This document shows, one piece after another, positions 13,535-60,753 of a DNA stretch of 64,000 nt (position 1 is its first letter; every line of letters begins with the position of its first letter). A program made the position numbers and the translations under genes. A model generated the notes under the pieces. The model worked only from the letters and a program-made list of their open reading frames with translations. It did no database searches and was not told where the DNA came from. The stretch lies in the NCBI RefSeq assembly GCF_964355755.1, contig NC_092672.1, positions 10,230,001 through 10,294,000 of the forward strand. Reading direction: 5' to 3'. Source of the DNA: Antedon mediterranea. Lineage: Eukaryota; Animalia; Echinodermata.

Positions 13535-16500
13535 ATGTATTTGCTACTGCTTTTAGTAAGTGTCTTGTTCTACACTCCTTGTGCAATGAGTCAATCGAGT
13601 TCTTCTAGAGTATACTTCTCAGGTAAGTAATAATGTCCAAACTATGTTTCAACCATAATTTTGTAAGAGTTCTATTTATAATAACCGTACATATAGAATG
13701 CGTATCAGGCGTTTCATAGTATGTAATTGAACAGACAGCTTGCTCGTTTAAAGTTAAATAAATGATTATGTAAAAGTACAAGAAATAAAAGTGTATAAGG
13801 GCTGCAAAAAGAAGTTAAAAATTAGAATTTGTATATTGTCGGTATCTTTATTCAACAATTTTCATAAAAATATTTGTATACAAAATGTATATATTATCGG
13901 AAAATTACAAGGACGATAACAAAAATAACATAAACATATTATTAAGTCAGAAAAAATAAAATTCTACAAAATCATTATTTTAAAAATGAATTACCACATT
14001 TGTTTCATCAGATGGATTTTCCAGTTCTCATAAAGGGTATTTCAATTGTTTTACTTTTACGAAGTTTCATTTAATAATTTGAGTATTTTGGATTTTGTAA
14101 TCCACCAGTGAAAAAAATGTGTTAGTAGTTCAATATTGTAGTATTGGTTTTATGAAAAAATAATAAAAAATAATAAAACATGTATCATAGGCCTACATGT
14201 ATTTCTATGTTTAGATTCGTGTAGGGAAGACGAGTTATTGTGTAACTCCACTAGTGAATGTGTATCCTTAACATTGGTGTGTGATGGTAATGAAGATTGT
14301 TCTGATGGATCAGATGAGTTCAACTGTAGGCCCACAGAAGAACCAATTGTTACTGAAATTTCGAAATTTATTACTGAATGTAAGCAGTTATATGATTTTA
14401 TGTTCAAATATATAATAATATAACATGTTGATGAATGTTAATAAACGTAATAAAAAGGAGAGTTTCGACTAATAATTTAAAAGTGAATTAACTGGTTCCT
14501 ACGTTTTACCATATTTAAAGGGGTGCTCCGGGTTTAATTAATCAAATCTTGCCAGAAGCATGTGGTGCAGTCCGACACACATTAATGGTGGCGCTATACA
14601 GAAGCTTAGTTTCGGAGGTGCAATAACTCATTATCTATTTCCTATTACTACAGATGTTTCATGTGAGGAAAACGAGTTTAAGTGCAAGAACGTTTATGAA
14701 TGTGTACATTCATCATTGGTGTGTGATGGTAAAGAAGATTGTTCTGATGGATCAGACGAATTTGATTGTACTAAATCCACTGAATTACCGAGACAATCAA
14801 CATTTCCATGTAAGTTAGTTTTCGGAATTCACGATAATACATACAATAAGTATTTAAAAAGTATCAACATTTAAATGAAGTTGGTTTACGTCGATACTTT
14901 ATTATCTGAAATTTCAATGAAATACAATCTTTAGCCTAATCTTAATACTAGAATAACTGTGAATATTATTGTTGAAATGGGAAAAAAATATGCACGACAC
15001 TGGTTACATTTTCAAGCAACTGATACACTTCACAACGTTAATTTAGAGATTTCTTGAAATAAAATGTTACTCTAAATATTCTTATTAAATTTTAAGTTAC
15101 TATTATTAGCGTTTCTATTTTTAGATGTAACAACACCTACGTGTAAGGAAAATGAGTTTACGTGTTTAATCACTCGTGATTGTATAAATTTATCATTGGT
15201 GTGTGATGGTTATTATGATTGTACGTATCGTACAGATGAATTCAACTGTATTAGATCCACAGTTACTGAAGCGACCAAACAGTACACCCCATGTAAGTAT
15301 ATAGTTACAGTACAGTGTGTTTTTCTATGTTATATTGAATTCATAGATATTTTTTTTATTGTATTAAATCCACTGAATTACCGAGACAGTCAACCATTCA
15401 ATGTAAGTTAGTTTTCGAAATTCACGATAATACATGCAATAAGTATTTAAAAAGTATCAGCATTTAAATGTAGTTGGTTTACGTCGATACTTTATTATCT
15501 GAAATTTAAATTAAATACAATCTTTAGCCTAATCTTAATACTAAAATAACTGTAAATATTATTGTTGAAATGGGACAAAAATATGCACGGCACTGGTTAC
15601 ATTTTCAAGAAACTGATAGGCCTACACTTCACAATGTTAATTAATAGATGTCTTAAAATAAAATGTTACTCTAAGTGTTCTTATTAAATTCATAAGTTAC
15701 TATTATTAGCGTTTCTATTTTTTAGATGTGACACCTACGTGTAAGGAAAATGAGTTTACGTGTTTATTCACTCGTGATTGTATAAATTTATCATTGGTGT
15801 GTGATGGTTATTATGATTGCACGTTTGGTTCAGATGAACACAACTGCATTAGACCCTCAGTTACTGAAGCGACCAAACAGTACACCCCGTGTAAGTATAT
15901 AGTTACAGTACAGTGTGTTTTTCTATGTTATATTGAATTCATAGATATGTTTTATTGTATTAAATCCACTGAATGACCGAGACAGTCAACCATTTATAAT
16001 AAGTTAGTTTTCGAAATTCACGACAATACATGCAATAAGTATTTAAAAAGTATCAGCATTTAAATGTAGTTGGTTTACGTCGATACTTTATTATCTGAAA
16101 TTTAAATAAAATACAATCTTTAGCCTAACCTTAATACTAAAATAACTGAATATTATTGTTGAAATTGGAAAAAAAATATGCACGACACTGGTTACATTTT
16201 CAAGAAACTGATAGGCCTACACTTCACAATGTTAATTTATAGATGTCTTAAAATAAAATTTTACTCTAAGTGTTCTTATTAAATTCATAAGTTACTATTA
16301 TTAGCGTTTCTATTTTTAGATGCGACACCTACGTGTAAGGAAAATGAGTTTACGTGTTTATTCACTCGTGATTGTATAAATTTATCATTGGTGTGTGATG
16401 GTTATTATGATTGCACGTTTGGTTCAGATGAACACAACTGTATTAGACCCACAGTTACTGAAGCGACCAAACAGTACACCCCGTGTAAGTATATAGTTAC

Positions 16501-25437: not shown

Positions 25438-26225
25438 ATGTATTCAATGTTGTTTTTGGCGAGCGTTTTTGTTCTCATTCATCATTCAAGCTCTATTACT
25501 ATTAGCCCTCCTTTTGGTAAGTATTGTTTGTTATTAATTTACATATTACGAATATTTAAATTGGGTGTATTTGCAAAAGGACAAAATAACATATATAAAT
25601 ACACATTTTGAATCCACAATCTTCAGATCTAGATCTAGAATAGAATCAAATAAAATGTGTGCAAAACTCAAATTCAAACACACAACCAATCCGTATTAAT
25701 TAACCCTTATCATAGTGGCCGCTTTTTAAGCGCAGTACATGAAATCGGACGTTTTCAATTCAACTTCTTTTTCAGACAATTGTCCATATGGTATAATACA
25801 TTACACACAAAAAAGATGAAGGAGAGACTTGAGGGACAAAATTGTCATCTATTAGATGACAACGAAAATAGTAATATAATATAAGTAATATAATAGTAAT
25901 ATAATAGTAAGTAATATAATAGTAATATAATAGTGTTACTGACAAAACAAAAGAATGTTATTAACAAATTAATTACAGAAAATATTGACATTTGTATACG
26001 CGGATGCGACAAATGTGTAATTATTGCTAAAAATCCTTGAAGTTAGCTTTGACTTTTCTATTTATAGGAGTTCCGTGTGAAGATCCTGATAATGTGTTCT
26101 GTTTGTCGATTATGGCATGTATACCATCTTCAGATACGTGCAATTTTATTCAACGTAGCAGTGGTGGGCATTTAAATCAAGATGAGAACGACAGCTCTCC
26201 TGGTGATGCGAATGTTTCTCCTTAA
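25438..26225 (+). CDS. Gene B: 78-aa secreted peptide with a 4-Cys LDLa-derived domain
   Basis: Exon 1 25438-25516 (MYSMLFLASVFVLIHHSSSITISPPF, donor GTAAGT). Exon 2 26068-26225 (GVPCEDPDNVFCLSIMACIPSSDTCNFIQRSSGGHLNQDENDSSPGDANVSP*). GTAAGT donor at 26248; probable 3' UTR exon from ~26562. Confidence 0.65.
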
Positions 26226-27260
26226 TACTGAATCATGTATTACATTTGTAAGTTACTATATGCTCTATGTATACACTGATAATGGTGGGCCATGACATTA
26301 CAGTAAAACAACATGTTCAAATAAAGTTAATAATTTTGTGAATGTGTATGTGGTGAATCGAATGGTGCACCAAGCTAGCAGAAAGGAGCCTTGAACTGTG
26401 CCGATTTTATTGCTATCGTTATCATTATAAAACTAAATTGAAGAAATATGCATATACATCTACATATCTATAATTGCATCATGTTTATATTTATTGTTTG
26501 AAAAGAATTGGATTATCACCTTAAAAATTCAAATAAACAACAAATGTTGTTTTCTTTTTAGAAAACATTCGGCTGGCAAGCTGTGGAATGAATACTAAGT
26601 GTGTTTGGATGTTATCTGATCAACAACATACCTGATCAACAAGCATGATGTGGTGTAGTGTTTCTTAAATACATGTATATAGGCCTATAATACGAGGCGA
26701 CAGTCAATTATTATTTTTAAAAACCTAACTAGAAATATTCCAGCGTCTTAATTGTGATTAAGAATTGTGTTGTAAAGTTAAACTAAAATAAATTATTATC
26801 TGAATATTTGTTTATTTTCTGTTTGAATGTATTCGTTCATTATTTATATTTGTTTGCAAACTTTCAGCGGAGATTGCTTTCAGATAAATAGTTATTCTTT
26901 TTTACACAAATGTTGGTAATAGAATAGAAAGGCCTTAATAAAATGAACAAGGCCATATATATATATATATTTAGTACCAAAGAAAGTTGTTTAGTTTCAT
27001 CTACTATTAGTGATAAAAAAACACATTATTTATGTTCCGAGTCCAATAACAAAATAAGTCCTGAAGAAAATGTTTCAGTTTCGTCAAATAGAAGTGATAA
27101 AGAAAATAACTATTTATGTTCTGATTCTGATTCAAGAAATGATGTTATATTGGAAGACCATAATAGTTTCAATGATACTACAAGTTGATCGAGTGATGAT
27201 ACAGAATATATCTTACGAGCCAATAAAAAGGACCTCAATAGTAAAAAGAAACTATATTGT

Positions 27261-27798
27261 GTGTATACAAATATAGATGGTCTAATCAACAAAAAAGCAG
27301 AACAAGAGAGCTACTTAAGCAGCAAAACTGATGCACCGGATATTCTAGCAATTACAGAAGTATTTCCTAAGCGACGAAGTAGTGATATCTATACAACAGT
27401 CCTTCAGCTAAATGGGTATGACATGTTTATAACAGACCAGCAGGGCAGAGGAGTTTGTATATATACAAATAAGGCGCTAAAAGCAACAAGTGTAAACTTC
27501 GACACACAAGTAAACAACTTTAATGAAAGTGTCTGGTGCGAGATCAGACTTGAAAATGAAGAAAATATATTAGTGGGATGCATATATAGAAGTCCAAACT
27601 CTTCAAAAGAGAATAATGATGCATTGTTAGATTTGATATCAACAGATAGACTGGACATCGTAGATTTCGAGAGCTAGTGAGAATCATGGTAGCAGCAAGC
27701 TTGTTGATTGTCTTCAGGACAACTTCCTTTACCAAGTATCTAACCGAAATACAAGATATAGAGATGGTAATAGACCAAGTCTGTTAGATTTAATCATT
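27261..27798 (+). pseudogene. LINE endonuclease domain, disrupted
   Basis: ORF 27261-27677 encodes the APE N-terminal part. Near 27645 the GDFN motif region is missing and the frame shifts. The RT frame resumes as IDWTS*ISRAS..LQDNFLYQ..TR..LLDLI, with an in-frame TAG. Confidence 0.8.
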
Positions 27799-30036: not shown

Positions 30037-30834
30037 AGTGTATTGCAGAAGAATTTAAATCAAGGAAACGAATGAAAAAAACAAAAACAAAAAAAAAACC
30101 ATGCAGTGATGACTTGATGAAATTGGGAGGGCATGACATGTACCATACATAAATGTATGGTCTACTTACGAGCCCGACAAGACAGGTGATTACAGGTGAT
30201 TATAGGATGGCTGCAGTCGCGTGCTAAAGTTAGTGTTTACCGACCGACCGTCAAACCGACCGACTAAACGACCAACATAGTGAGCTGTAGAGTCGCGTTC
30301 AACGCGACTAATAAACGGTGTGGCAATGATTTCTATGAGATGAATAAAGTAGATATAGGGAAAATTGTACATGTTTTGGTGGTATTTTTATTCAACTTGA
30401 AAAAATGTTATCGACCATATACCAACTACCTAGACTTGCCTCAAGTCTATATTATTGTCTTTTTTTGTTATGTTAGTCCACCAGTCGGCGTTTCGATTTT
30501 TGTCTAAAATACTTTTTACTAACATTTAGTCAAAACTCCGTCTGGAACCCAGAACAACCAACCACTCTATAGCAACCATCGTTTTTAAAAGTTTTCTATT
30601 TTCCATGTTGATGTTCCACCAGCTAATTATGGTAAAATCAGGTTTTTCGTCATAGTGTCTGTCTTTACACTAGATAAAGAGATAACAAGGATTACTCCAT
30701 TAGAAGAACACAAACAGAGATAGGCAAAACATAATAACTCTTGTAAAAGCAGAAATATACTGGTTCCAATTTCAACATTTTATTTTCTTACCAACAATAC
30801 TCCAGTGTCATCTAATCTAATAGAATGACTCTTA

Positions 30835-34413: not shown

Positions 34414-34480
34414 ATTTTGGTCAAAAAACCCTTACCTGCGATTGCGTAGATGGGTATTGACCTTAGTGAAAAGAGTAGAC
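34414..34480 (+). pseudogene. Decayed EGF exon relic
   Basis: ATTTTGGTCAAAAAACCCTTACCTGCGATTGCGTAGATGGGTATTGACCTTAGTGAAAAG matches gene A EGF2 (TTT TGG TCA AAT AAA CCT TAC TGC GAC TGC GTA GAA GGG TAT..GAA AAG) with indels and no intact splice sites. Confidence 0.75.
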
Positions 34481-34622
34481 AAAATCTACATTGTAAAATA
34501 TTAGGCCTGAATACTTTTTAAAATACAATAAACAATTTAAATTTTAAAATTGTTGTTTTACATGACAGTTATTAAAATAATTTATTGCCTACTTGTTGTT
34601 GCTTTGAACTATAAATTGTAAA

Positions 34623-43670: not shown

Positions 43671-46600
43671 ATGTATTCATTGATGTTCTTGACCAGTGTT
43701 TTTGTTCTCATTTCTCCTGTGAGAACGTCGACAAGTTCAAGCTCTTGGTATTCAGGTGGTAAGTTTGTTTAACAATGAGGAATGTAATTTTGGTACAAAC
43801 TAAGGTATAAATACACTGTATATAATCACATTTACGCTTCAATCGACAGAGAATCATCTCTCGACCACGCGGGTACTCACAGACCCGATCTATAGGTAAA
43901 ACGATGTTTCAAAAATGTTATATTATATTATTTATTGCTATTCTGGCTTTTCTATTTGAGATGGTCCTTGTGGAGAAAATGAGTTTACGTGTTTAACTAG
44001 TCGTGACTGTATAGACTCGTTATTCGTGTGTGATAAGGACGAAGATTGCGCTGATGGGTCAGATGAACGCAACTGTACAGAACGTACGTATGACTTTGTT
44101 TATAATATATTATTGTGATGTTCTATTGATTATAAGCTGTCAATATCTCGATTATACTGTAGGAAAACATATCTGAGTTGTGGTATTCTCTTTTACGTCA
44201 CTGATGATTGATATAAATTGAAATGTATGTAGGCCTACCTATGATGAAGAAAGAAAATTATTCTGATATTACTGCTAATGTTATGATTCCCATTTGCTAT
44301 GTCACTCATTGCTAACAGGTACAAACAATACCAATTATATTATGATAGATTATGGCACGCAGGTTGGAGAATTTTACTCTACGACACCTGAAGTGACAGT
44401 AGATGATGCGCCGGTCAGAATAATTTACTCTACGACTAGTAAGTACTATAGTTAGTGGGCCTACATGTGTCATAAATGTGACAAAATGTGTTTGTATACT
44501 AAAGTATACTCATACTATATTTCCACATTTTATTTTGTTGCTTAACACATTAATGAATCATATTTATGTATTAGTTGCACCAGGTCCGTGCCACCCAGAT
44601 CCTTGTGGAAGGTTTGGAGTCTGCAACACTAACTTTTTTATCCAATTGGTGTACGAGGAGCAGTTTAAATGCGATTGTTACAACGGACACAAAGGAAAAT
44701 TGTGTGACATCGGTATGTCATCAATTTATAATTAAGCAATTATTATTATTATTTATTTGTATTGCATGTCTTTAGGCACATGTGGCCAATGATTACCAAT
44801 AGTAAATTAATCACTATCCCCTCAGTATTTATTGAACAAGTTCACCGGGTAATTCCCAGCTACTCGTATTGAATGATAAATTACAAGATTCTTCAAAGTG
44901 CACACCGATTGTAACTGTGCTTATTTATTATCAATAATACCGTATCATACAATTTATGAAGTATGAAATTATTTTTTTTTTGTATACTGCCTTATTTATT
45001 TACTTATTTGTGTATTTACTGCTTTTATGTTTATTGTAATTATTATTATTGTCTAAGGTTGCTTATTAGCTTAAAGATCATGCTCTGCACAGATCTTAAA
45101 ATATGCATCCTCCATGTACTGGGTTGTAGTAGTTGTAATAATTGAATTGAAATTATAATTGAAAATTACACTGGAACAAGGCCATATACATATACAGTCG
45201 CATGCGCACATTTGAGTTAGTCTATATACTGACCGACCGACTAAAACGTAAAGTTAAAAAAAAAAGCATGTATGCTATAATAAGTGTTCATTAATTTCAG
45301 AATTTTGTAAGCTTAAATGTCAAAATTATGGAGATTGTAGACTTTCGTTATGGTCAAATGAGCAATATTGCGACTGCGAAGATGGGTATGACGGTGACCT
45401 TTGTGAAAATGGTAAGATAAATTATTAATTAAATATCAATTTAGCATGTTACTGAACATTACATTCGTTTTAAAGGCAGCTTTGGTGTAAATAAAACACT
45501 TTCTTTCTATTTTTTACATTCGGAAAAATCCATTACGCCATGTAACATTGTAACAAAGCAGTCATGTCGATTAATACGATATTGTGTTTTATTTTGAGTG
45601 ACAAAGCTACAATCTATATTCATTAGGACTTCAAGAAATAGTTGGTTACTTCTTTTGTGTGACAGAAAGTCGTGATTTTTAAAACATTTTTTTATTTTTA
45701 ACCAACACTTTATAACGTCTATAAAACAATTCATTTCAATTTAGACCTGTGCTATCGGTTCTGTAACAATAGTGGAGAATGTCTAATCAACTCTTGGACA
45801 AAAAAGCCTTACTGCCGATGCGCACCTGGGTATGCCGGGCCCCGCTGTGATGATGGTAAGATCAAGTCAATCTAACAAAAGGATATTGAGCTCGCCTTGC
45901 CCAGATTGGAACTCGTAGCAGTCCTTTGATTGTATGTCTGGCTTGGACAAATACCTGCTGTAACAGTACAGTGCTATATACAACTCCGCGACGCGTGGTG
46001 TCTGTTAAGCGCAATGGAATGACGTAAGCGCAACGTAAGTAACTTGATAAGCGATGACTTATCCGAACTATCGCTTGTCATTGGTCAACTCGTTTGCGAT
46101 TACGTTGCGCTGCGCTTACGTCCCATGAGTTGCGTCCTAGTGGGAACCAAGCTTTAAGGACCGTGTCGCAGCCACATAATAATTATTTTGATCTCCGGAG
46201 CTCAGCATCCTGTTATTAGATTGCCTTGGTAAGATCCATGAATGGATATTACTGTAACTGTATTTGTACATTTCATAGATTGCATGAATTATTGTAACAT
46301 AAATTTGGTAATTAAAAACCTTCACCAGAATAGGCCAGGATTTAACATACTCAACCTGTTTCTGTAATTTTACAATCTATATATTCATTTTAAATCTTCA
46401 AACTTGACTTTCATTGTATTAGAAGTAATTATTGTTATTATGGACTTAATTAAATTAACAATCAAAGCGAACTCACTACTCTTTAGTTATATAAACTTTA
46501 TCAATTTCAACGAATGTTCAACATTTTTGCTCGATGGTTTATTTAATTATATCAACTTATCATTTATCTACTGTACGACGGATAGATCTGTGCGACTGTG

Positions 46601-47428
46601 GTAACAATGGACGCTGTGAATATGGAGTATTTATAGGATTTCATTGTGAATGCGAAACGGGTTATGGTGGCAAAAACTGTGAAAAGGGTAGGATTACATT
46701 GAAGTTACTTTTTTTTCTTTCTTTTTTATATACTGTAATTAAACGAACCTATAACTAGGTCACCTGAAAATGGTTTTATTAATTTTAAAACGGCTGTAAA
46801 ATGTCCACATGGTTATATTAATTATAAAATAGCTGTAAACATTTCAACAGATTTCTTTTTCAGTCAAAATTTCTTTATATTTTAAGAAAAGAAAGAAATA
46901 TAATTTCTAGCCAATCAGAAGATATGTGTTGTTGGTTACAATTTTAGAACTGTGTCTATCCTTCTTTCAGTTATACATACCAGATATAGTTATCGATGAT
47001 TTCCAGATTATTTTTTTCTTCAATCCATCGTTTATCCAATCATTTCCAACTAATCTTACAATTTGTGTTTCCATGTTTTATTTAATCTCAACACGTTTTA
47101 TGATATTTAGTCATAAGGGAATCATACCTTTGGTGGGTGTAAATTACAGTATAGATATGAATATACGTTTGATACTAGATCTTTGTGATGATCTCGACTG
47201 CCAGAACAATGGAGAATGTAAATTGCGATACGGAAACAAATACTACTGTGATTGCCCGGATGGTTACTATGGTAAACGTTGTGAAAAGGGTAAGGTTAAA
47301 CATGTGTAAAACAATAACAAATATTGTACAATAACGTACTGTATGTACTATACAGTTTTAACAGGCTAATTTATAATCCCAATTTTTTTTTCATTTTTTT
47401 AGGAAACGGTCATCCAAACACAAAATAG
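43671..47428 (+). CDS. Gene F: secreted protein with signal peptide, 1 LDLa, linker and 5 EGF (~299 aa)
   Basis: Exons 43671-43758 ([20 protein letters not shown]..), 43961-44083 (LDLa), 44349-44438 (Thr-rich linker); EGF 44575-44712, 45301-45411, 45745-45855, 46586-46687, 47179-47289; terminal 47403-47428 (GNGHPNTK*). The five EGF exons are collinear one-to-one with those of gene A. Confidence 0.85.
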
Positions 47429-49079: not shown

Positions 49080-52000
49080 ATGTATTCAATTTTGTTCTTG
49101 GTGGGTGTTTTTGGTCACATTAATTATGTTACCTGTGTAGGTTCGTCTTCAAGTTCTAGTGTGTATTTTTCTGGTAAGTTGTATTATTATTTTTCACATT
49201 TAAAGTAAGTTTGATGATTCTTACGGTATTCAAATACACTACGCAGAGTAACAGTGTATTATGAGAATACATTAATAGCAAAGTTAATTTCATGTGGTGG
49301 TTTTTGAAATCTTAAACTTTAGATCACTAGCCTATATCATAACAATCTCTCGTTTGAGTTTTAGAAAAAACTTTAGTGGCATAGTCTACTGTATGAGAAA
49401 TGCTACAAAAAAAATTAGTCTCGCCCTTAAACTTCAAATCACGAACCTATAAACCACTTCTCATTGTGAGTGTTAGAATTTGCATAGTGTATGAGAGTAT
49501 TTATAACAGAAAATGTTAATCTCACAAGATGATTTTGGAACCCTTTAACTTGAGATCACTAGCGTAGCCATCTCTCCTTTTGAGTTTTAGAAAAACATCA
49601 TTGTCATAGTGTATACTAGAATAAAACATATAACTGAAAAATTAATTTCACAAGGTGATTTTGGAAACCTTTAACTTCAGATCACGAGCGTGTAATTTCC
49701 AAATTTATGGATGAATAAAGCGATGTCTATATCTATACTAATCTCTCCTTTTAGGTTTTTGGATCGAAACATTAAACTTACGTTTACTGCCTATAACCAT
49801 CTCATTGAGTTTAAAACAAATTTGTATACCTGATCCGGAAAACACAACTATACAAAATATTACCATATTAATTTTATATAAGCCTAGTTATAAAACAATA
49901 TTTAAGCATATGCTATAACATAAAACCTTTCTTTTGGCTTAAGTACAACCCTGTATAGACCTAAACTGTTGAAACTTGGTTATATTTTCTAGAACTTTCA
50001 TGTGATGCAGATGAATATACATGTAGGTACAGTGGAGAATGCATACCGTCTTTATGGGTTTGCGATAGAGATGCTGATTGCTACGATAGTTCAGATGAGA
50101 CCGAATGTCCTTTAGATACGAGTGAAACGACCACTGAATTACCTATGTATTACTTCACGGAAGAAATATGTAAGTATATACACTATACTATTATATACTA
50201 ACAGTTTTATAAAGCAAATAATGACTACGGTATTCTTAAAACATTACAAGTGCAGACAACTCTCTTCACATTAATTACCAAATCAGAATCTAGATAAAAT
50301 TCCTTTTAATGGTGGTAAATAATAGAAAGGAACAATTAACCAAAGTACTGGAATGCATTATAGAATTGAGGAAGACCAGGAAACATCCATGCAAAACTAA
50401 TTAATAACACTACTTTAATTCTATCTATCGAGGGGTGATACAGATTTTCATATGTGCATAGATATAGCCTATTAAATAGAAAAGAAAATAATTTTGTTTA
50501 AACAGAACATTATAAAAAATAATGTATGGACGGTTATTGTTTTTAATGTAAAGAAAAACAACATAGTACAGTATGAATGGTTTAAAAATGATTTGTTTGT
50601 GTTTGTAACAAATTTCTTTCTAATTTCTTTTGTTTTCTCTAATACTAACAATTTTTAAACTTTCTGTGTTATTTTTTTATACACCTCATTTTTTTTTAAA
50701 TATTATGTGAATTTTGAAAATAGGTAAACGATATTTCACATACTTTATGTAAAATATAATTGTAGACAAAAATTGAACCTATAAGATAAGACCTATATTT
50801 CCGGATGAGATTACGTTTTTCGAAATATGAAGAAACACTCCCTAACCTTGGTGATTAAGTCTTTCAATCAAATTATTAGGCCCTAAGTAAAAGTTCATTG
50901 GGTGTGTAAAATAAAATTGTTATTTATCACTAATGCAAATTTCCATTTTTTTCACTAAATTGCCTTGAATCATCATTTTTTTTCATGTCATTAACGTTTT
51001 AAAGTTGTTATTTCATTTTTTTTAAATCTTTATATTAATCTATTGTTTGTTTTGTCAATGTGTATAGGGCGTTCTTGTGAACCTGGGGAATTTACGTGTG
51101 ATAGTGGACAGTGCATACTCTCTGGGCAGGCTTGTAACTATTGGGAAGACTGCGATGACGGGTCAGATGAACGTAACTGCTATAGAGGAGACATCACACC
51201 TAACCCAACAGGTCAGTATATAAGAAGTTGAAGCAAAATAAAATCGTGTAGGCCTAAATGAATGAATTACATGCTACCTGTTTGTTAAAATGTTTACCTC
51301 TTCGATTGACAATTAATAATAGTTCTAGAGCACAGAACAATTCTTAATAACTATTTTGTTTGAAGGTTTGCACGATGAAAATAAATAAGTTGATATAAAG
51401 TTTATTTTCTTTTCAATACTGAGGGACCTTTTCAGTAAAAGACTGTTCTCCAAGAGGGCACAGTATACAGAACAAGGCCATATACATGGCTGCAGTCGCG
51501 TGCTCAAATTTGAGTTAGTGTTTACCAACCGACCAACCAACCGACAAACCGACTGACATTATAGTTAGCTGTAGATTCGCGACTAAAAACAAACAGTTAC
51601 AAAGTTTGGGGTACATGATGATGATCTAAGCAAATTGATTGAAACGTCGAGAAACTCAACAGTGCTTTCAGAACTGGGTATCTTTATATCAATTCTAAAT
51701 AACAAGACCTAGATTTTTAAAAAATACCTTGTTGCTGAGTTCTTGAACTATACGATAAGAAACTGGCTGCTTGTAGTATTTTCCACATTGGCATGTCCGG
51801 CGTTTCTGGCATTTTAGTGGCTCTTTTGTCCAGGCTTCGAGTATCATCTTGTATTCCAAATAAAAACGTATATTCCTGGACGGTGGAGTTCTTGTGGTAT
51901 CTCGGAAGGTCCTTCGATTGTAAAAATAACAACGTCAATGTATAGACATGTTTTAAATAAAACATAACCTCATGGAAAATAGGTGTCAAAGGTTATTGCC

Positions 52001-55000
52001 CAACATTACTAATATTTCCAACATCAAAGCAAAGACAAAAATTAAATGAAATTATTTAAAATATACAAATTAAATGAAAAGGCCGTTTCGTAACAATTGC
52101 CAAGGTATTATTTTTAGACAATCCTTGCTTCTGTTTTTTTTTATAACAAACATTATGAATGTAAAGAATGCGGTACTGCACAAACTTTAAAGATGAATTG
52201 TTCCTTAAAACACAAAAAAATTGTGAAAATATTCTAAATTTAAATTGGCCATATCAAAGAAATATTACAGTTATTCACTTTAAGTCGAAAATTTGAACCA
52301 AAAACAACAAGTTTACGTAATTTACAGGTAAATTAATTTGATTACATTTTATCTGGAAAATCGTGAGCGAAAGTAAACAAAGATTTCAAACCACAAGTAT
52401 GCATTATGCATGATGCTAATTAGGATTGTTTACAACTCGTCACGGTTGAGAAGGTGTTTCACACAGATCGCGAGGAAGTTTTATGATTATTCATACAGGA
52501 GTCTTCCCAATAAAAAATATATTAAAAAAAGAAACATCATTGATAAAATAATTAATGTTTACGCCTCTGTTATTTGCCTCAATTATTCATGATTCAAGAG
52601 ATCGCGTATGTCATGAATAAGGTACTATCTCGCTATCAGTTGTATCTTATCATTCAACTGAACCGTCAAAATATGTATGTATGTTTTGAAATGTCATTCG
52701 TTGACAAATTATACATTATACCATTCCAACAGAGGCCTACCAGTGTGCAAACAATGAATACAAGTGTCAAAGTTGGCCTACACATTGTATCCCAAAACAC
52801 TGGATTTGTGATATTTACATCGACTGTTTAGATGGATCTGATGAAGTCGGATGTCCTTCCCAACCCCCTATACAGTATGGTACGCCGGTCGGAGGAGACT
52901 ATTTTACAACTAGTTAGTATACCATTGTCTTATTCATTGTCTTATCCATAGATCATTGTTAGAAAGATCATCAAGTCGTTATCATAGTGGTAACGACTTG
53001 GCTTCACAAACTAGTAATAATTAGCTTTAGATTTTGTGACAATCAGATATCAAAGCATCCGAGTCTTATAGTAAGACACTCGGGTTACTTTACGTGAATT
53101 CGATGCATTGTCGACGTGATTTTATCTCAAATGTTCCTTGCTCAATTGTAGGTACACTAAAAAACGAAAAGGTTTTTATTTATGCGAAGCAACAATATAC
53201 ACCAGTTATCAAAATAATTATATGGATCATTATTTATGAAAACTGTGACATTGTAATTCAAAATATTACAGTAGTTACAAGTTATTAATCAAACCGTAAT
53301 TATTTATTATTAGTCGAGCCAGGTCCTTGTTACCCAGACCCTTGTGGACAATGGGGAATCTGCAAAACCAATTATTTTATTTCTGCGTATGCCGATAGTG
53401 GATTTAAATGTGACTGTTTCAAAGGGCACACTGGACAGTTTTGTGAAATTGGTAGGTAATTCATTTTACTGTTTAAAAAACTGATTTGAGTCCAAAACGT
53501 TTTTAAAAGAGTGCAAGCAGTAGTAGGCGTCATTATCTCTTGCTTATTTCATGCAATAGTAAAAATTACTTAGTATTATTTTTTGTTATTATCTTAGACC
53601 TATGTGATCAACTTCGATGTCGTAACAATGGGTTATGTAAAATCTCCTGGTGGACCGGTGATGCCTACTGCGATTGTCTAGATAGGTATAGTGGCGAACG
53701 TTGTGAAGAAGGTAAGATCACATTGCACATTGAAGAAAACATGTTATAAGAAATGTTTTAAAAATAACCTAACTCAGGTTTAATCAAATTTATTTAGTAA
53801 ATGCATAAAACCATGAATGATATAATGTAATGTAATAAAAATGTAAATACAATCAAATAATGACGTCACCAGTCAATCAACTACCACATAATAAAACATC
53901 AAGATTAGGATTTCGCGTAACAAAATCAAGCGTGCAACTCTGAGATTCTCCCTAGCCTACTAGCTATCAATCATATAATAATACTAATAGAGAGGCCTAG
54001 ACCTAACCTATGCTAGACGGCTGGCATCAAACTTTAATTTTAACAAATTAACATAAATTATCGATCTTAATAAAAATAATATCTGACCTGGTACTACATT
54101 ACCAATATGTGTTATTATTAATTTATCAAGTGGACATTTGCAGAATGTTTGTGTGCAACAGAACATTTATTCAGCAGCAACAAAAGATACATTCAACAAT
54201 ACAAGCTTGTTTCATTAACAATAAACGTAACCAGGTAAACAAATGCACGTTTCCAATCTGTACACCATGCGCGCGGTTTCATTAACAATAAACGTAACCA
54301 GGTAAACAAATGCACGTTTCCAATCTGTACACCATGCGCGCGCTATCAACTATACTAATGCCGGTGGTTTCATCTAGACTAATTGTTTGCCTTGTTCATG
54401 GAAATAAATAAAGGAGGAATATTTTTACCTGCGACGTTTTAAATCTTGAACATAAAGGACTATAGATAGTCATTGGAAGTTATTCTATATAATTACTAAT
54501 CAAGGCTAGGCTAGCCCCTAGGCCTACTACTTTTGAATTAAATATCAAAGATATATATTTTTAGCCTAGGCCTAGGCCCTCTAGGCCTAGCTCTAGTGCG
54601 TGCCACATATATTAAAAACAGAGCGCCACACATAACAACGTGCAAGCAGTTATTTGTTTCTGTTTGACTAGCCTAGGCCTAGCCTAGGCCTCCAAAACCA
54701 GTTTCAATTTACAAAAAAAAGGTTTTGAGCGAACCAAGTTGATCGCGTAACGAATGAGCGCGACGGGGTTTTTGCTTGAGCGCAGCAGCAATGCTCTCGT
54801 CGCTCCCCACCACACACCACCCACCGCCGTCGTGCGCGCTGGGCCCCGTGGACCTCATCGAGGCTAGAATCACACTTTTCTTTTAACGACAAAATACCGT
54901 TAATTATCGAATATATAAATAGTAGTGTCTGATCTGGAAAACAAAAATTGTGACTTGTATTGTAACTTACCACGTGAACGTGGAATCTTCAGAATCTTTA

Positions 55001-58000
55001 GAATGCATAATTTTAGAGGGATATACAATAACGCCGTGGTTAGGATTCCGGCACCGGAACTCAACTGCCCACCGTTAGGGAATCCGACACGCTATTGCGC
55101 ATGCCCAGAGCTCTGGGAAGTGAATTATAGCTTGCACCAAAGTGCCACACCACGGCGTATTAATAAAGCTTGTTCATCAAATAAAACGACGAAAATAAAA
55201 TGTGAAGGAGGAGCATACGCCGCGCACACAGTAAACATACCGTAACCAAGTAACCACGTACAATCTTGCGCGCCTTTTCATCAGCACATGGATGCGCACA
55301 AGCTAACTTTTATAAAGCGCGATTACGTAACTTCAACTATGGGTACGCATGACAACCTGAACTTGTTGAAATGAAATAATTATTATTTGTTTAAAAAAAG
55401 TATTATACTCTATCTATCAATAAATAAAAAAAATGAAAATTACTTTTCGTTTTAAGATGAAATGACGTCATGTAAAAAAAATAAGACTATCATAGATATT
55501 TTTTTCCCCAAACCAATAGAAATTATCCTGGTTTAGGCCCGTTGCCACCTGGCCTTTTGCCACCCAGCCCTGACTTTTTATCAATTGATATAAATTAAAT
55601 TGTCATAAAAGGGCGTTATACAATTGTTGATGAAAAATGATGAGTAAATATCCATCATTTTAATAATTCTAGACCGATGTAATGACGTAAGTTGCCAAAA
55701 CAATGGACAATGTAAAGTGGCATGGATTACTAAAAGGCCTTACTGTGATTGTTCTCCGGGCTACAGTGGAACATACTGTGAAACGGGTAAGGTGTAAATA
55801 TTATGCAAATATTTTATTTATTTTAAACGATGACCTAGGGCCTATACACACCTTAACCCCGAGCACTATTGAGAAATAAATGTAGACAATGTGGATAATC
55901 ATGTACTGTCTTGTAGCGTAACTTGGTTGAATTGCGCACGGTGTTGTTAGTAGACGACGAATATGTTCGTATCGCTAAAGGACCACTTTGTGTCGAGCAG
56001 CCACCAAACGGCGCACATTCGTCTGCCCACAAACTGACAGGGTCTATAGAACCATTGAATTGTTGGGGTTTTTTTTCGGTTTTTTTTTCCAAATTTATCA
56101 ATTGTATTTAGCTTTAAGGTTAATTTGTTTCATGGTTTTTCACAAACGCCTTGAGCTCTTTAGTGGATATGTGCGCTGTATAAATCTTATTATTATTATT
56201 GAATTGCGCACCAGCCAGATTTGTACACTACACCTGCATCCAAGAAGATGTGTTCTTTCACCAGAAATGATCGGCGGAGAGAGCCTCGAACATGTGCCGA
56301 TTGTATGGCTATTACCGCTCAGCCACCCAAATCAACTAGTCTAACATTTGTTGTAGGAATACATTTTTTTAATAGGCCTATTCCTCAATGTAGTATACTG
56401 ATAATGTATATTTATTAAGAACATTTATTTCCGATAGACGCATGCGCTTCAGTTACCTGTCGCAATGGAGGAGAATGTAAAGTAGCATGGCCCTGGACAG
56501 ACGAACCCTACTGTGATTGCTCAGAAGGCTATGGGGGTAAAGAATGCGAGAAAGGTATTTTGCTACTCGGAGACTGCGGCAATTAACAAACTCATAATTA
56601 TTTTCATCTATTACTAAAAATAATGTTAATAATGTGTGTAACCCACCATTACGGCTGACTAAAATTGTATATTATTTGTTACAGAATTATGTACTAATTT
56701 GCAATGTCAGAACAATGGTAAATGTGAGATATCTTGGTGGAGTCGAAGACCGTATTGTGATTGTGAAGGCGGATACATTGGTAAACACTGTGAGATTGGT
56801 AAGCCTAAAAAATGTTAGCCTGCTAGTCTGCATTACAGTAGCAAACTTGACTGAACTGTTCAACTGTCACTACAACTAGAAAGGTTTGATCAAATTGACT
56901 AGTGGAGTCTACCAAAGTTTACCAAACATTGTCGAGTTTGCTACTTTTTATAGCTAAAACTACAGTCCATGTTCAAATGTTATGTTATCCACCTGTAGAA
57001 TCACATGACTGTCAAAGACTTAACTTGATTAGATGAGTTGACAAATATCAGCAAACGAACTTCTGCAAATTAGTTTTTTGCAGTTTTTTCTTTTCTTCAT
57101 CAGAGTTTACAAGCAGAAGAAAAAGCGTATGGTAATCAAATAATAAATACAATCTAAAAATTAAACTGTGTTTATCTTTTTCTCAACCTTAGATCTATGT
57201 AGCTCTATAAACTGTCAGAATAACGGATTATGTGAACTAACATGGTTGAGAAAAAAACCCTACTGCGACTGTACTGATGGATACAGCGGTGAATATTGTG
57301 AAATAGGTAAGAAGGAACAGTTCTGAGTTTTAGCATTGTGTCTCAACGATATTAGCCCTAAAGCTTGGTTCCAACTACTAGCGACGCAACGCAACGCAAC
57401 GTAAAAAAATGCCCTTTCAATAAATGTATTTTCCCCCGCACCCTGCGTGAAATCAAATCAAACGATTTTTGCAGCACCGTTGCATCGTCGATTCCCATTG
57501 TGATTACGCAATACCTTTGCGTCAATACGTCGCTGTGTTGCGACCGTGGGAACCACGCTCAAGCTCTGTGTGTGGAATAGGGTATCAAGCTAATTAGGAG
57601 ATTTGGTTTAGATCCATCTCATGAAAACAACTTGCTCTTTTTCCGTACGTATGTTACCGCTATTCGTTATGTTGATGTTGGTTTTATGGGAAAAAATCAC
57701 TCCGTACAACATCCAACTATAGAATGTTGTTATATGAGGTAAAAAAATCAACAATTTTTATTTTGATTTTTAACAGAAAACTCGTGTGGATCTTTGAACT
57801 GTCAGAATAATGGTGTGTGTGAAGTATCTTGGTTGAATAACGCATACTGCGATTGCACGAAAGGATACTCTGGTGAAAACTGCGAAAAGGGTAAACTAAA
57901 CTTGTTTCATAACATGAGCTATAAATGATATAAAGTGCAAGCATAAAAGCCTAGGTGAATATGTTTTAAACAGGGGTGGCGCCAGGATCTTCCCGACGCG

Positions 58001-60753
58001 GGGGCTACATTCCCCGACGAGGGGGCTATGCGAGCGAAGCGAGCATCACTAGGCTGGGGGCCAGGGGGCCGCCAAGGGCCCCCGGTGGGGGTCGAGGGGG
58101 CGAAGCCCCCGGAAGCAACGCGTTCTAGCGTCATTTGAGGACATTTGAATCAGATTTAGGGTAGCCATTTTTTCCAATTTTTATAATGCATAAATACAAT
58201 ACTGCGTGCAAAAAAACGATGCGCGATGACTGTTTTAATCCATATTTTTCAATTTAAAAAATAAAAGTTCAAAGAAAATTTAGAAAAATAGAGTTGGAGG
58301 TCCCGGAAATTGGACTTATTATACTTCAAAACATGAAACAAAATATATAAGTCCCTATCAAGGTTGTGACTGAGCTAAGAAATGTTTGAAAAATAGAGAT
58401 GTTACGTCCCGGAAAATGCACTTCTTGTACTTCGAAATATGACCAGCTTTATTGTTGGGGCTGAACTAAGAAACTGTTTAAAACTAGAGCTAGCTGCAGG
58501 TCTTCAAAAAATTGCATTTTATACTTCGGAAACATCAGGCCTAGAGGCTTAAAAAACGCAAGCGTAGACCTTTTTAAGTCGGGGAAATAAGTTTATTCCT
58601 CCCAAGTGTATGCGTGCGTACCATCTGGACTTCCGAGTGGTGAGAAATTCATGACATACAGGACATTGAAAATGTAATAACTTAGCTATAATAAGATGTT
58701 GGCTAAGCGAAAATGGCATGTTTTTTTGTTTAGTAATGGATGAAAAATTTATTTTAGGTGCCCCACGGTACAGAATGTTACTTGTAAATTAAAAAAATAG
58801 GTGAACATACGAACAATTAACATAATTCGTTTTTGCTGTAGTGTTACGTGTAGCGTACGTCGACGCAGTACACGACGTAACCGTCAGTAAACTTCGCCTG
58901 GAAAATAACTACAGTACACATTTTGGTCCCTGGATGGAACTTGATATCACGCGTCTCGACCCACCCAACGTTGAACGATTCGTACAAAGGGATACCGCCA
59001 GACAAGTGCGAACCTAGCTATTGTTTAGTAGTAAGTTAGATCGCTGGCAATAATGAATGCATATAAAGTGCATAATATCACTCTGACGTACTCTCACGGT
59101 CAATGAAACGTCGCGGTTTTCTAGGCGCTGAAGCTAGCTACGAAGTGAACGCGAACGCTTTTTACTGTATATTATATTCCCCGACAAAAAGTACCCGTGT
59201 TCCCTTCGGTAACCGTCGGTAAACTTCGCCTGGAAAATAACTACATTACACATTTTGGTCCCTGGATGGAACTTGATATCACGCGTGTCGACCCAACGTT
59301 GAACGATTCGTACAAAGGGATACCGCCAGACAAGTGCGAACCTAGCTAATGTTTAGTAGTAAGTTAGATCGCTGGCAATAAATGAATGCATAAAAGTGCA
59401 TAATAGCCCTCTGACGTACTCTCACGGTCAATGGAACGTCGTGGTTTTCTAGGCGCTGAAGCTATATGAAGTGAACGCGAACGTTTTTTACTGTATATTA
59501 TATTCCCCGACAAAAAGTACCCGTGTTCCCCGACGGGGGGGCTAGGCTCCCCGACGAGGGGGCTAGAGCCCCCGTAGCCCCCCCGCTGGCGCCACCACTG
59601 GTTTTAAATTATGCGACTTCAACTTTCCTCCTCTTGGCTGTGCATGCTAAACAGCTCAGATTGGTTTCGCATGACAAACATTGTTTCATTTTTAGATTTC
59701 ACAATACCACCATTTCTTTGATTATACTACTACAAGAAAAATTGTTTTTAAATTATTATGATTCATTTCGATTATCGATGATGTATCTTCATTCTATGTC
59801 AATTCATAATGATCGACATCAACATCGTCACTAACGTTTTTCAATCCTAACAAAATATTCATTTCGATCCTAACAAAATATTCTTTTCGATCCTAACACA
59901 ATATTCTTTTCGATCCATAGACTTATGTGGCGATCTACAATGTTACAACAATGGTACATGTGAATTACCATGGTTAAGAAACACACCTTATTGCGACTGT
60001 TCCGACGGATATACCGGTGATAACTGTGAACATGGTACGTATTTTCGCTAAAGCGTGGTTCCCACTAGAACGCAACGTAGCAACGTATGTCGACGCAAAG
60101 TGTTGTATTGCGTAAACACAAGTGGGAACCGACGACGCAATAGTGCTGTAAGCATGTTTGATTCCACGCAGGCAAATACAATTATTAGAAGGGCATTTGA
60201 TTACGTTGCGTAGATTGCGTTACATTGCGTCGCTAGTGGGAACCAAGCTTAATTGTAAATCTTCTCGGCTATGACAAAACCCAAGGACGTACCCGCAAAG
60301 CAAGCGAGTTGACCAATGACATGATCGTCCGTTGCGTCGCTAGTGGGAACCATGCATTTTAATTGGTTTAGAGCTCGTTTGTACGCAACTTATGGACGTA
60401 ATAGCAAGTCATTTAACCAACTCACTTATGAAAATCATACCTTTGCTTTTGCTATAGCCTACAAAAAAATAATAATTTGGGTTTTTAATAGAAACAGAAT
60501 GTGAATAAAGCTGGTGTTTCTTGGCAAAGATGCCTAACGATGTGTATTCCCGCGTGTCAATAAATCGGGTGGAGTGTATGACATTGTTGGGAACAGTGCA
60601 TTCGTATTATTTTACTGCATCTTTCATGTGAATTATTACAATATAAAACGAGGACTCAAAAAGCCAAAACTCCCGTCGGGTATACTGTATTCTATTTTTA
60701 TTCTTTCAGATTGCAGCACATCGTGGAAGCGTGGCTGTAAACTGTTGGGCTAA
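49080..60753 (+). CDS. Gene G: secreted protein with signal peptide, 3 LDLa and 8 EGF (~525 aa)
   Basis: Exons 49080-49173 (MYSILFLVGVFGHINYVTCVGSSSSSSVYFS); LDLa 49993-50169, 51068-51211, 52733-52912; EGF 53314-53451, 53598-53711, 55673-55786, 56438-56554, 56685-56798, 57193-57306, 57777-57890, 59921-60034. The terminal exon is probably 60710-60753 (DCSTSWKRGCKLLG*), alternatively 60492-60508 (ETECE*). Confidence 0.82.
49280..49815. repeat. Degenerate tandem repeat (~120-bp unit) in intron 1 of gene G
   Basis: Recurring TTAAT(T/C)TCACAAG.TGATTTTGGAA.CCTTTAACTT.AGATCAC(T/G)AGC..TCTC..TTGAGTTTTAGAA, about 4 copies. Confidence 0.6.
51471..51590. mobile_element. Short HINE-like interspersed repeat
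   Basis: AACAAGGCCATATACATGGCTGCAGTCGCGTG..(CCGA)n..GCGACTAAAAA. Other copies at 45175-45247 and a split copy at 26946-26959 + 30205-30314. Confidence 0.7.
54209..54342. repeat. Perfect 67-bp direct tandem duplication
   Basis: GTTTCATTAACAATAAACGTAACCAGG...ACCATGCGCGCG occurs at 54209-54275 and 54276-54342. Confidence 0.9.
57362..57559. mobile_element. PIF/Harbinger MITE (same family as 36410)
   Basis: AGCTTGGTTCC...GTGGGAACCACGCT termini; TAA/CAA flanks. Confidence 0.75.
57971..59600. mobile_element. Non-autonomous hAT transposon (1630 bp)
   Basis: TIR CAGGGGTGGCGCCAG / CTGGCGCCACCACTG with a perfect 8-bp TSD GTTTTAAA (57963-57970, 59601-59608). GC-rich subterminal CCCGACG repeats. Internal ~330-bp direct duplication (58877-59203 vs 59209-59530). 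Confidence 0.92.
60052..60249. mobile_element. PIF/Harbinger MITE (same family as 36410)
   Basis: AGCGTGGTTCCCACTAG...CTAGTGGGAACCAAGCT with TAA TSD, 17 bp downstream of a gene G exon. Confidence 0.85.

What the first reader, a model, noticed from the sequence alone, without database searches (positions are those of the whole stretch)
13535..60753. Tandem cluster of seven secreted modular LDLa/EGF proteins with variable domain counts
Seen in sequence: seven same-strand genes share a homologous MY.. signal-peptide exon. They are built from one-domain phase 1-1 exons and differ in module number (LDLa:EGF = 7:5, 1*:0, 1*:0, 1:0, 1:2, 1:5, 3:8; * = remodelled). Established: true LDLR/LRP receptors pair LDLa and EGF with YWTD propellers and a transmembrane helix, and neither appears here. 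LDLa-rich secreted proteins are known as sea urchin fertilization-envelope components (SFE1, SFE9, proteoliaisin), and tandem-EGF secreted proteins as adhesives (mussel foot protein 2). Inference: this is a lineage-specific, fast-remodelling secreted family (soluble decoy or binding proteins, egg coat, mucus/adhesive or immune effectors) that automated pipelines could mislabel as LRP/Notch fragments or fuse into one gene.
Basis: partly seen in the sequence, partly recalled or inferred. Interest (0 to 1): 0.85.

Follow-up and report, generated by a model that had tools for sequence, protein, structure and literature searches.

The report
Feather-star secreted LDLa-EGF gene cluster
Seven neighbouring feather-star genes build predicted secreted proteins from different numbers of two standard binding modules (LDLa and EGF), likely acting as two-ended, calcium-dependent linkers in a secreted coat or matrix, and two of the genes have shrunk to tiny four-cysteine peptides of untested function.

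Summary
Seven same-strand genes (G1-G7) have homologous first exons, 35 phase 1-1 internal exons, no internal stops, and genomic LDLa:EGF counts of 7:5, 1*:0, 1*:0, 1:0, 1:2, 1:5, 3:8. No YWTD propeller or transmembrane helix was found. RefSeq (crinoid Antedon mediterranea) already models G1, G5, G6 and G7 as separate 'uncharacterized' proteins, so the feared fusion or mislabelling did not happen; G2-G4 were not found in the protein collection. One RNA-like run holds a spliced contig that fits all 13 G7 exons, plus pieces of G1 and G4-G6. No orthologue appeared among 262 other hits. New here: all 20 EGFs carry an aromatic-rich loop, EGF1 has a predicted helix insert, and G2/G3 descend from a G4-like LDLa exon but lost two cysteines and the calcium site. 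Best reading (0.45): secreted multivalent linkers of an extracellular coat or matrix; partner and tissue are unknown. Rivals: defence effectors, ligand traps, lipid carriers. New variant of a known kind; interest 0.4.

The parts
13535..24086 (+). G1, 609 aa if all exons are used. Signal exon 13535-13622; LDLa exons 14215-14379, 14654-14809, 15125-15292, 15726-15890, 16320-16484, 18369-18512, 18789-18935; linker-only exon 18216-18254; EGF exons 21484-21621, 21955-22065, 22591-22701, 23030-23128, 23584-23694; last exon 24064-24086
   Evidence: RefSeq XP_071944168.1 (561 aa, 6:5) and XP_071944169.1 (451 aa, 4:5) equal this model with one or three LDLa exons skipped; 1266-nt contig of run X1 lies on the last exon and 3' UTR, with letter differences of the same depth in two EGF exons
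14761..16898 (+). Recent tandem duplication of an intron-plus-LDLa-exon unit of about 594 bp inside G1 (LDLa 3-5)
   Evidence: 93% identity over 1558 columns in self-blastn; exon pairs 93-98% identical
25438..26225 (+). G2, 78 aa: signal exon 25438-25516 and exon 26068-26225, an LDLa-derived peptide with four Cys and no calcium site
   Evidence: no Pfam hit; DNA homology to G4 exon 2, z 14.5; transcription not shown
32048..32521 (+). G3, 76 aa: signal exon 32048-32126 and exon 32370-32521, an LDLa-derived peptide with four Cys
   Evidence: DNA homology to G2 (z 27.8) and G4 (z 8.3); transcription not shown
37113..37604 (+). G4, 70 aa: signal exon 37113-37179 and single-LDLa exon 37459-37604 ending in Gly-stop (possible amidation signal, inferred)
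   Evidence: Pfam LDLa 43 bits; X1 contigs at 36938-37179, ending at the donor site, and 37479-37727
39197..42672 (+). G5, 171 aa: exons 39197-39263, 40174-40302 (LDLa), 41234-41302 (linker), 41510-41635 (EGF1), 41834-41932 (EGF), 42647-42672
   Evidence: identical to XP_071944170.1; 601-nt X1 contig on the last exon
43671..47428 (+). G6, 299 aa: exons 43671-43758, 43961-44083 (LDLa), 44349-44438 (linker), EGFs 44575-44712, 45301-45411, 45745-45855, 46586-46687, 47179-47289, last exon 47403-47428
   Evidence: identical to XP_071944171.1; X1 contigs carry letter differences at 44617 and 47449; AlphaFold2 model
49080..60753 (+). G7, 525 aa: exons 49080-49173; LDLa 49993-50169, 51068-51211, 52733-52912; EGFs 53314-53451, 53598-53711, 55673-55786, 56438-56554, 56685-56798, 57193-57306, 57777-57890, 59921-60034; last exon 60710-60753
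   Evidence: identical to XP_071945618.1; 2432-nt X1 contig from 48896 to at least 61400 whose four listed pieces fit the 13-exon model to the base
26248..38176 (+). Likely relic last introns in the 3' flanks of G2, G3 and G4: donor-like sites at 26248, 32559, 37633 (22-37 nt after the stop) and acceptor-like sites before 26562, 33654, 38176
   Evidence: seen in sequence; use is inferred, and an X1 contig reads through the G4 donor site unspliced

Best explanation
G1-G7 are seven separate paralogous genes of the feather star Antedon mediterranea that encode predicted secreted proteins with an N-terminal LDLa block, a Thr/Pro-rich spacer and a C-terminal EGF run, and they likely work as two-ended, multivalent linkers in a secreted coat or extracellular matrix. 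Shown: gene structure, module counts, no YWTD or transmembrane segment, one full spliced G7 transcript, purifying selection on the modules, and an aromatic-rich C3-C4 loop in every EGF. Inferred: after secretion each intact LDLa binds Ca2+ and clamps a lysine of a partner protein; the spacer (likely O-glycosylated) holds it away from a calcium-independent EGF rod; the exposed Trp/Phe/Tyr loops, and the helix inserted in EGF1, grip a hydrophobic surface on a second partner or membrane. Duplication and loss of phase 1-1 exons would tune length and valence. G4 would be a one-armed competitor. G2 and G3 are LDLa-derived 4-Cys peptides that likely lost calcium binding and took on another role. Which layer (mucus or cuticle, skeletal matrix, larval adhesive, egg coat) is not known.
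For: Architecture and RefSeq identity. Spliced G7 contig leaves no room for an extra exon. 13 of 15 LDLa modules keep six Cys and the terminal acidic motif; the first LDLa of G5, G6 and G7 has Asp at all three crown positions plus Phe or Trp. This fits the lysine-clamp mechanism described in PMC8239462 (passages); the exact positions are recalled. 0 of 20 EGFs carry the cbEGF motif. 20 of 20 EGF loops have two or more aromatic residues against 669 of 3012 pattern-defined loops in 146 other hits; Trp in 11 of 20 against 162 of 3012. Trp is kept in all 7 of G7 EGF2-8 although synonymous sites are saturated (pS 0.79). dN/dS 0.22-0.36 between paralogous modules; 6 of 8 listed exon differences in run X1 are silent and 2 conservative. 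AlphaFold2 gives pLDDT 82-96 over the EGF run with a helix at 121-126 in EGF1. The proteins are acidic (D+E 17-18%). LDLa and EGF proteins occur in echinoderm and mollusc secreted layers: sea urchin fertilization envelope (10.1101/369504, passages), scallop byssus (PMC9168380, passages), feather-star skeletal proteome with 3 LDL-receptor-like and 7 EGF proteins (PMC7351957, supplement rows).
Against: No partner, tissue or protein-level evidence. The 20 EGFs are paralogues, so the loop enrichment is not 20 independent observations, and the background loops come from a pattern match. Most G1 LDLa modules (6 of 7) lack the aromatic residue, and none has Asp at the middle crown position, so they may bind something other than lysine. 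Small members (G2-G5) are poor structural cross-linkers and look more like ligands or effectors. Tyr (3-7%) and Lys (4-6%) are modest, unlike mussel adhesives as recalled. Fold matches are generic (all Z<8). Lineage restriction fits defence proteins equally well.
Confidence: 0.45

Rival explanations
1. Defence or immune effectors: soluble LDLa decoys or opsonins whose LDLa end catches microbes, viruses or toxins and whose aromatic EGF loops bind membranes, with G2-G4 as small defensive peptides.
For: Tandem, lineage-restricted, secreted and Cys-rich. G2/G3 mature exon has dN/dS 1.5 (2.0 without Cys) and is less conserved than its 3' flank, 76% against 86% (p 0.036), a pattern recalled from toxin and antimicrobial peptide genes. 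Diversified LDLa proteins are major components of centipede venom, function unknown (PMC4379518, passages; PMC5577568, passages).
Against: dN versus dS for G2/G3 is not significant (Fisher p 0.28). The large members show purifying, not diversifying, selection, and listed allele differences are mostly silent. No venom organ is known in crinoids (recalled).
Confidence: 0.2
2. Soluble signalling modulators: ligand traps or receptor ligands in which non-calcium EGFs bind a receptor through a hydrophobic hairpin and the LDLa acts as in secreted single-LDLa ligands.
For: Structural neighbours include DLK1 bound to ACVR2B (Z 5.6, rmsd 5.0, 74 aligned) and WIF1 (Z 4.5). ErbB ligands appear among sequence hits to the EGF profile (TGF-alpha E 1.2e-5). 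The last EGF of G1 and G6 has Gly-x-Arg before C6. Jelly belly and HEN-1 are secreted single-LDLa ligands (recalled).
Against: These matches are at generic EGF level (Z<8). Each EGF lies in one exon and there is no transmembrane precursor, unlike ErbB ligands as recalled. Signalling ligands are usually conserved across echinoderms, and no orthologue was found.
Confidence: 0.17
3. Lipid or lipoprotein carriers: the LDLa end binds lipoproteins or yolk protein and the aromatic EGF loops bind lipid, for uptake in the gut or transport to gonads.
For: Canonical LDLa crowns in G5-G7 and hydrophobic loops; LDLa-lipoprotein binding is proposed for remipede venom proteins (PMC5577568, passages).
Against: No membrane anchor or endocytic tail to complete uptake; no lipid-binding fold in the model.
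Confidence: 0.08
4. G2 and G3 are decaying pseudogene copies of G4 and not new peptides (this rival concerns only those two genes).
For: dN/dS is not distinguishable from 1; Cys5, Cys6 and calcium ligands are lost; a CR1-type LINE lies between them.
Against: Both keep frame, splice sites, stop position and the same four Cys. In neutral simulation to the observed divergence, no stop plus four Cys kept occurred in 0.3-1.4% of 10,000 runs per setting (indels not simulated). Signal exon dN/dS is 0.54.
Confidence: 0.2

Closest known systems
LDLR/VLDLR/LRP receptors
   Same: LDLa modules with six Cys and calcium motif followed by EGF modules; commonest named hits of the family profile (solved LDLa structures)
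   Different: No YWTD propeller, cbEGF motif, transmembrane helix or tail; Thr/Pro linkers follow the LDLa modules; EGFs form an uninterrupted run
Sea urchin fertilization-envelope proteins SFE1, SFE9, proteoliaisin
   Same: Secreted echinoderm LDLa proteins that assemble into an extracellular layer (10.1101/369504 and PMC3528131, passages)
   Different: No record so named among listed hits; the passages read mention CUB and LDLa domains, not an EGF run; oocyte expression untested here
Mussel foot proteins mfp-2 / Pvfp-5beta and scallop byssal EGF proteins
   Same: Secreted tandem EGFs; Pvfp-5beta aligns to the G6 model (Z 5.3, rmsd 4.2, 82 residues; sequence E 5.3e-5)
   Different: No LDLa in mfp-2/5 and rich in Tyr/DOPA and Lys (recalled); these proteins are acidic with Trp/Phe loops. 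Scallop proteins carry Calx-beta inserts (PMC9168380, passages)
Notch/Delta/Jagged, DLK1, WIF1, NELL and Del-1 EGF runs
   Same: Best sequence and fold matches for the EGF rod; DLK1 and NELL EGFs are solved bound to receptors
   Different: About 25-38% identity, generic; no DSL, C2, WIF or transmembrane part; a Ser/Thr before C3 (O-fucose consensus, recalled) in only 1 of 20 EGFs
Centipede venom LDLA proteins; Drosophila Jelly belly and C. elegans HEN-1 (recalled)
   Same: Secreted proteins whose only recognisable domain is LDLa, as in G4; centipede LDLAs diversified and have no known function (PMC4379518, passages)
   Different: No homology outside the module was tested; no EGF-bearing paralogues or 4-Cys derivatives in the passages read
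Arthropod LDLa + EB-domain proteins (ESM Atlas clusters)
   Same: Nearest clusters by language-model features, score 0.84-0.85
   Different: Below the 0.9 mark, so a lead only; EB rather than EGF domains

Membership tests
LDLR/LRP receptors | LDLa modules with six Cys and calcium motif | tested here: met
   13 of 15 modules pass Pfam PF00057
LDLR/LRP receptors | YWTD beta-propeller flanked by EGF/cbEGF modules | tested here: not met
   no YWTD-like motif in the three + frames; no PF00058 on the four RefSeq proteins; cbEGF motif 0 of 20
LDLR/LRP receptors | Transmembrane helix and cytoplasmic tail | tested here: not met
   max 19-residue hydropathy past residue 30 is 1.4; G7 contig fits the 13-exon model with no extra exon
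Notch/fibrillin-type calcium-binding EGF arrays | cbEGF consensus | tested here: not met
   0 of 20 (consensus recalled)
ErbB/EGFR ligands | EGF motif split by an intron between C4 and C5, in a transmembrane precursor (recalled) | tested here: not met
   each of 20 EGFs lies in a single exon; no transmembrane segment
ErbB/EGFR ligands | Receptor binding | not testable with these tools
   needs an assay
SFE1/SFE9/proteoliaisin | Secreted LDLa arrays | tested here: met
   G1 has up to 7 and G7 has 3 LDLa modules
SFE1/SFE9/proteoliaisin | Orthology by sequence | tested here: inconclusive
   none so named among 120 of 424 listed hits; no direct comparison with these proteins was made
SFE1/SFE9/proteoliaisin | Oocyte cortical-granule expression | not testable with these tools
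   tissue of run X1 is not given
Mussel foot proteins mfp-2/mfp-5 | Secreted tandem non-calcium EGFs | tested here: met
Mussel foot proteins mfp-2/mfp-5 | Tyr(DOPA)- and Lys-rich, basic composition (recalled) | tested here: not met
   Tyr 3-7%, Lys 4-6%, Asp+Glu 17-18%
LDLa module (G2, G3) | Six Cys and Asp/Glu calcium cage | tested here: not met
   four Cys, crown residues replaced; no Pfam hit; descent from LDLa shown at DNA level, weak at protein level (hhalign E 0.004 and 0.02)
Secreted proteins | Cleavable signal peptide | tested here: inconclusive
   hydrophobic N-terminus by hydropathy for 6 of 7 and by homology for G4; SignalP not available

The most novel reading that the evidence does not exclude
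The cluster records the birth of a new peptide scaffold. A secreted LDLa-EGF linker gene was cut by a stop in its first linker (G4 type); two copies (G2, G3) then dropped Cys5, Cys6 and the calcium cage, re-paired the freed Cys2 and Cys4, and diverged under positive selection into calcium-free, two-disulfide defence peptides. These would be a gene-encoded defensive peptide family of crinoids, beside larger paralogues whose helix-bearing, Trp-tipped EGFs form an undescribed membrane- or receptor-binding EGF type.
Probability: 0.15. Interest if true: 0.7.

Novelty: new variant of a known kind. Interest (0 to 1): 0.4.

Why it matters
It is a compact, complete example of class 1-1 exon shuffling at work: one locus holds a size series from about 50 to 590 mature residues, with recent module duplication (G1), independent EGF expansion (G7), internal deletion (G5) and truncation followed by remodelling (G2-G4). 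It offers named, testable candidates for crinoid secreted layers, and an EGF subtype with aromatic loops and a predicted helix insert. Three small genes are probably missing from protein databases. The domains themselves are ordinary, four of the seven proteins are already in RefSeq, and lineage-specific secreted module families are common in invertebrates, which keeps the score moderate.

Tried and rejected
One receptor-like gene or a fused transcript: rejected. Each gene has its own first exon and stop, RefSeq models four separately, and the G7 contig begins 184 nt before its own ATG. Twenty-five hydrophobic windows in raw + frames were not taken as transmembrane exons: none lies past the first exon of a model, and the introns are AT-rich. 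No whole genome is held, so paralogues elsewhere and synteny were not searched directly; the protein search with the EGF1 profile returned only the four clusters of this locus among 36 candidates. No RNA holder was on record; X1 is treated as RNA because its contig is spliced while X2-X4 give unspliced pieces. No listed X1 piece covers G2 or G3 (bin depths 0.45 and 2.5, table cut): no evidence either way. Complex prediction of G6 LDLa + Ca against G6 EGF1-5 gave 'no answer', score 0.00, alignments not used: no evidence for or against self-assembly. The EGF1 profile found no solved structure at E<=0.01. The G2/G3/G4 profile found 2 candidates and no hit among proteins of 25-90 aa; the Atlas gave only 0.76 for G2. 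Metagenome scan: 2 weak loci of 95 pattern matches; L001 is a lone EGF-like stretch at 38% identity, L002 was not read. A Pfam scan of 12 whole proteins failed on a length limit and was not repeated. Ten paper searches listed no title or abstract on this family; subscription journals are mostly missing, and the original SFE and sea urchin EGF-peptide papers were not available. The full skeletal proteome table of PMC7351957 was not among the text seen and may bear on the matrix reading.
Full report
Observation. I rebuilt the models from the sequence. Seven genes lie on the + strand between 13535 and 60753. They have 49 coding exons and 42 GT-AG introns; all 35 internal exons are phase 1-1, and no model has an internal stop. 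Pfam confirms 13 of 15 LDLa-type exons; 15 of 20 EGF exons pass a curated cut-off and 19 of 20 have an EGF-family hit at E<=0.005. All 20 have the six-Cys EGF spacing. The first exons are homologous in 20 of 21 pairs against shuffles. The counts 7:5, 1*:0, 1*:0, 1:0, 1:2, 1:5 and 3:8 are right at genome level. Three internal exons encode only Thr/Pro-rich linker. No YWTD-like motif and no transmembrane segment occur.

Identity and annotation. A profile of the family's first EGF found four proteins among 36 candidates, all 'uncharacterized protein [Antedon mediterranea]' on a 38.96-Mb contig, a comatulid crinoid. G5, G6 and G7 equal XP_071944170.1, XP_071944171.1 and XP_071945618.1; G1 equals XP_071944168.1 and XP_071944169.1 with one or three LDLa exons skipped. 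RefSeq therefore did not fuse or mislabel these genes. A search with the second exons of G2-G4 among proteins of 25-90 aa found nothing, so these three are probably unannotated. This is indirect, as no exact look-up was made.

Expression. No run is on record as RNA, but run X1 holds a 2432-nt contig laid in four listed pieces on G7 (48896-49172, 49992-50169, 52726-52912, 60709-61400). Its record positions fit the 13-exon model to the base: exon 2 ends at 463, exon 4 at 787, and the last exon starts at 1727. This is one spliced G7 transcript with 3 LDLa and 8 EGF modules, its own 5' end and no extra exon. X1 also has contigs on G5 and G6, on the 3' half of G1 ending at 24526, and on both exons of G4. 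Runs X2-X4 give unspliced pieces and cover all 30 bins of 41401-61400; they are one sample and may be the source of the assembly. The tissue is unknown, and G2/G3 expression is neither shown nor excluded.

Relatives. An exhaustive search with G6 gave 4802 hits at E<=0.001; I examined the best 150. The family profile gave 424 hits, of which 120 were listed. Among the 262 other proteins fetched, the best score to the EGF1 profile was 19.4 bits (members 86-100, inflated because they built the profile), and the conserved pre-EGF linker motif occurred only in family members. Against uniqueness: 12 of those proteins also have LDLa plus pattern-defined EGF without YWTD or transmembrane segment. Eleven are LDLa arrays or fragments with 1-3 such matches scoring under 7 bits on the family EGF profile, and one is an 1824-aa protein with 26 EGFs; I did not study them further. 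No other crinoid appears among the named rows. The family looks restricted to this lineage within the limits of word-based and top-hit searches.

History of the locus. The EGF tree pairs G1 with G6 at modules 2 and 3 (starred support) and module 5 (94/84), and puts the first EGFs of G1, G5, G6 and G7 in one long-branched clade; 11 of 17 inner branches are unresolved. G5 has module 1 and a module-4-type EGF, which suggests internal deletion. G7's EGF2-8 have diverged to synonymous saturation. G1's LDLa 3-5 are a recent 594-bp tandem duplication. Paralogous modules are under purifying selection: dN/dS 0.36 for G1/G6 EGF1-5 (0.57 without Cys), 0.23 for G5/G6 EGFs, 0.27 for G5/G6 LDLa and 0.22 for G4/G7 LDLa. 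Of 8 exon differences listed for X1 (tables were cut), 6 are silent.

G2 and G3. Their second exons align with G4's from the acceptor through the coding part into the 3' flank (z 14.5 and 8.3; 0 of 500 shuffles reach the score), so descent from an LDLa exon is shown at DNA level. Protein-level signal is weak: 12.4 bits with 0 of 1000 shuffles for G2, 7.4 bits with 14 of 1000 for G3 (hhalign). Both keep Cys1-4 and lose Cys5, Cys6 and the calcium ligands. With the LDLa pairing 1-3, 2-5, 4-6 (recalled), Cys2 and Cys4 are freed and may pair (inference). Frame, stop and four Cys survive in 0.3-1.4% of neutral simulations. dN/dS is 1.5 but not significant (p 0.28); the exon is less conserved than its 3' flank (76% against 86%, p 0.036). 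G2-G4 each have a donor-like site 22-37 nt after the stop and a downstream acceptor-like site, as expected if a stop arose in the LDLa linker; an X1 contig reads through the G4 site unspliced, so its use is unproven.

Binding surfaces. In LDLR-family modules, acidic residues around Ca2+ and an aromatic residue hold a lysine of the ligand (PMC8239462, passages). The first LDLa of G5, G6 and G7 has Asp at all three crown positions with Phe or Trp; most G1 modules do not. No EGF has the calcium-binding motif. Every EGF has two or more aromatic residues in the C3-C4 loop (20 of 20 against 669 of 3012 background loops), and 11 of 20 have Trp (against 162 of 3012); the 20 are related, so the tiny p-value overstates the case. 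EGF1 has a 14-15-residue loop; AlphaFold2 on a 20-row alignment models the EGF run at pLDDT 82-96 with a helix at 121-126 in that loop, while the LDLa is about 62 and the linker under 50. The loop is moderately amphipathic (hydrophobic moment 0.35-0.59). Fold searches return generic EGF rods (Notch, Del-1, DLK1, fibrillin, mussel Pvfp-5beta; best Z 5.8).

Mechanism. The best-supported reading is a secreted two-ended linker: a calcium-dependent lysine clamp, a glycosylated spacer, and a rod of hydrophobic hairpins, with exon copy number setting length and valence (0.45). [quoted passage not shown] Rivals are defence effectors (0.2), signalling modulators (0.17) and lipid carriers (0.08); separately, G2/G3 may be pseudogenes (0.2). 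PMC10448888 (passages) added nothing. Partner, tissue and secretion itself are inferred.

Novelty and verdict. Ten paper searches listed nothing on this family, and the scan's earlier notes hold nothing on this cluster. It fails the defining tests for LDLR/LRP, cbEGF arrays, ErbB ligands and mussel foot proteins. It is a real, expressed, lineage-restricted secreted family built from common modules, four members of which are already in RefSeq without a name. The unusual parts are the aromatic and helix-bearing EGF loops and the LDLa-derived 4-Cys peptides. New variant of a known kind; interest 0.4.

Noticed in passing
window 27189-30036 (+): Near-complete CR1-type LINE (endonuclease and reverse transcriptase in ORFs of 162 and 790 aa, offset by one frame change) between G2 and G3; related copies are in run X1. 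The family label is recalled from the motifs.
   Followed up: partly
window 63456-63998 (-): Last exon of an SLC12-family gene (Pfam SLC12, 31.9 bits), tail-to-tail with G7; the assignment to SLC12A9 was not tested.
   Followed up: partly
window 62270-63243: Array of 39 copies of a 25-bp unit in the 3' flank of the SLC12 gene, preceded by a 24/48-bp array at 62077-62199; gives Cys-rich open frames that are probably spurious.
   Followed up: no
window 41496-41510: The ancestral acceptor of G5 EGF1 has changed from AG to AA; the next AG 12 nt downstream is used in frame, and RefSeq agrees.
   Followed up: yes
window 18216-18254 and 18369-18512: A linker-only remnant of the G1 LDLa repeat that RefSeq includes, and an intact LDLa exon, the only G1 module with the canonical Trp, that RefSeq skips; possible alternative splicing.
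   Followed up: partly
window 18900-18935, 41270-41302, 52880-52912: A conserved Pro-x-x-Gly-Asp-Tyr-type linker motif just before EGF1 in G1, G5 and G7, absent from 262 other proteins; possible tyrosine sulfation site (inference).
   Followed up: partly
window 24064-24086, 37459-37604, 60710-60753: G1, G4 and G7 end in Gly before the stop, a possible C-terminal amidation signal; G7's last exon adds two Cys that could form a small loop.
   Followed up: no
window 2933-4881 and 9589-10892: Two pairs of long inverted repeats, the first made of 15-bp units, like non-autonomous DNA transposons; shorter palindromic elements lie at 12650, 21187, 36409 and 39639.
   Followed up: no
window 58877-59530: A 329-bp direct duplication inside a high-copy element in G7 intron 11.
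   Followed up: no
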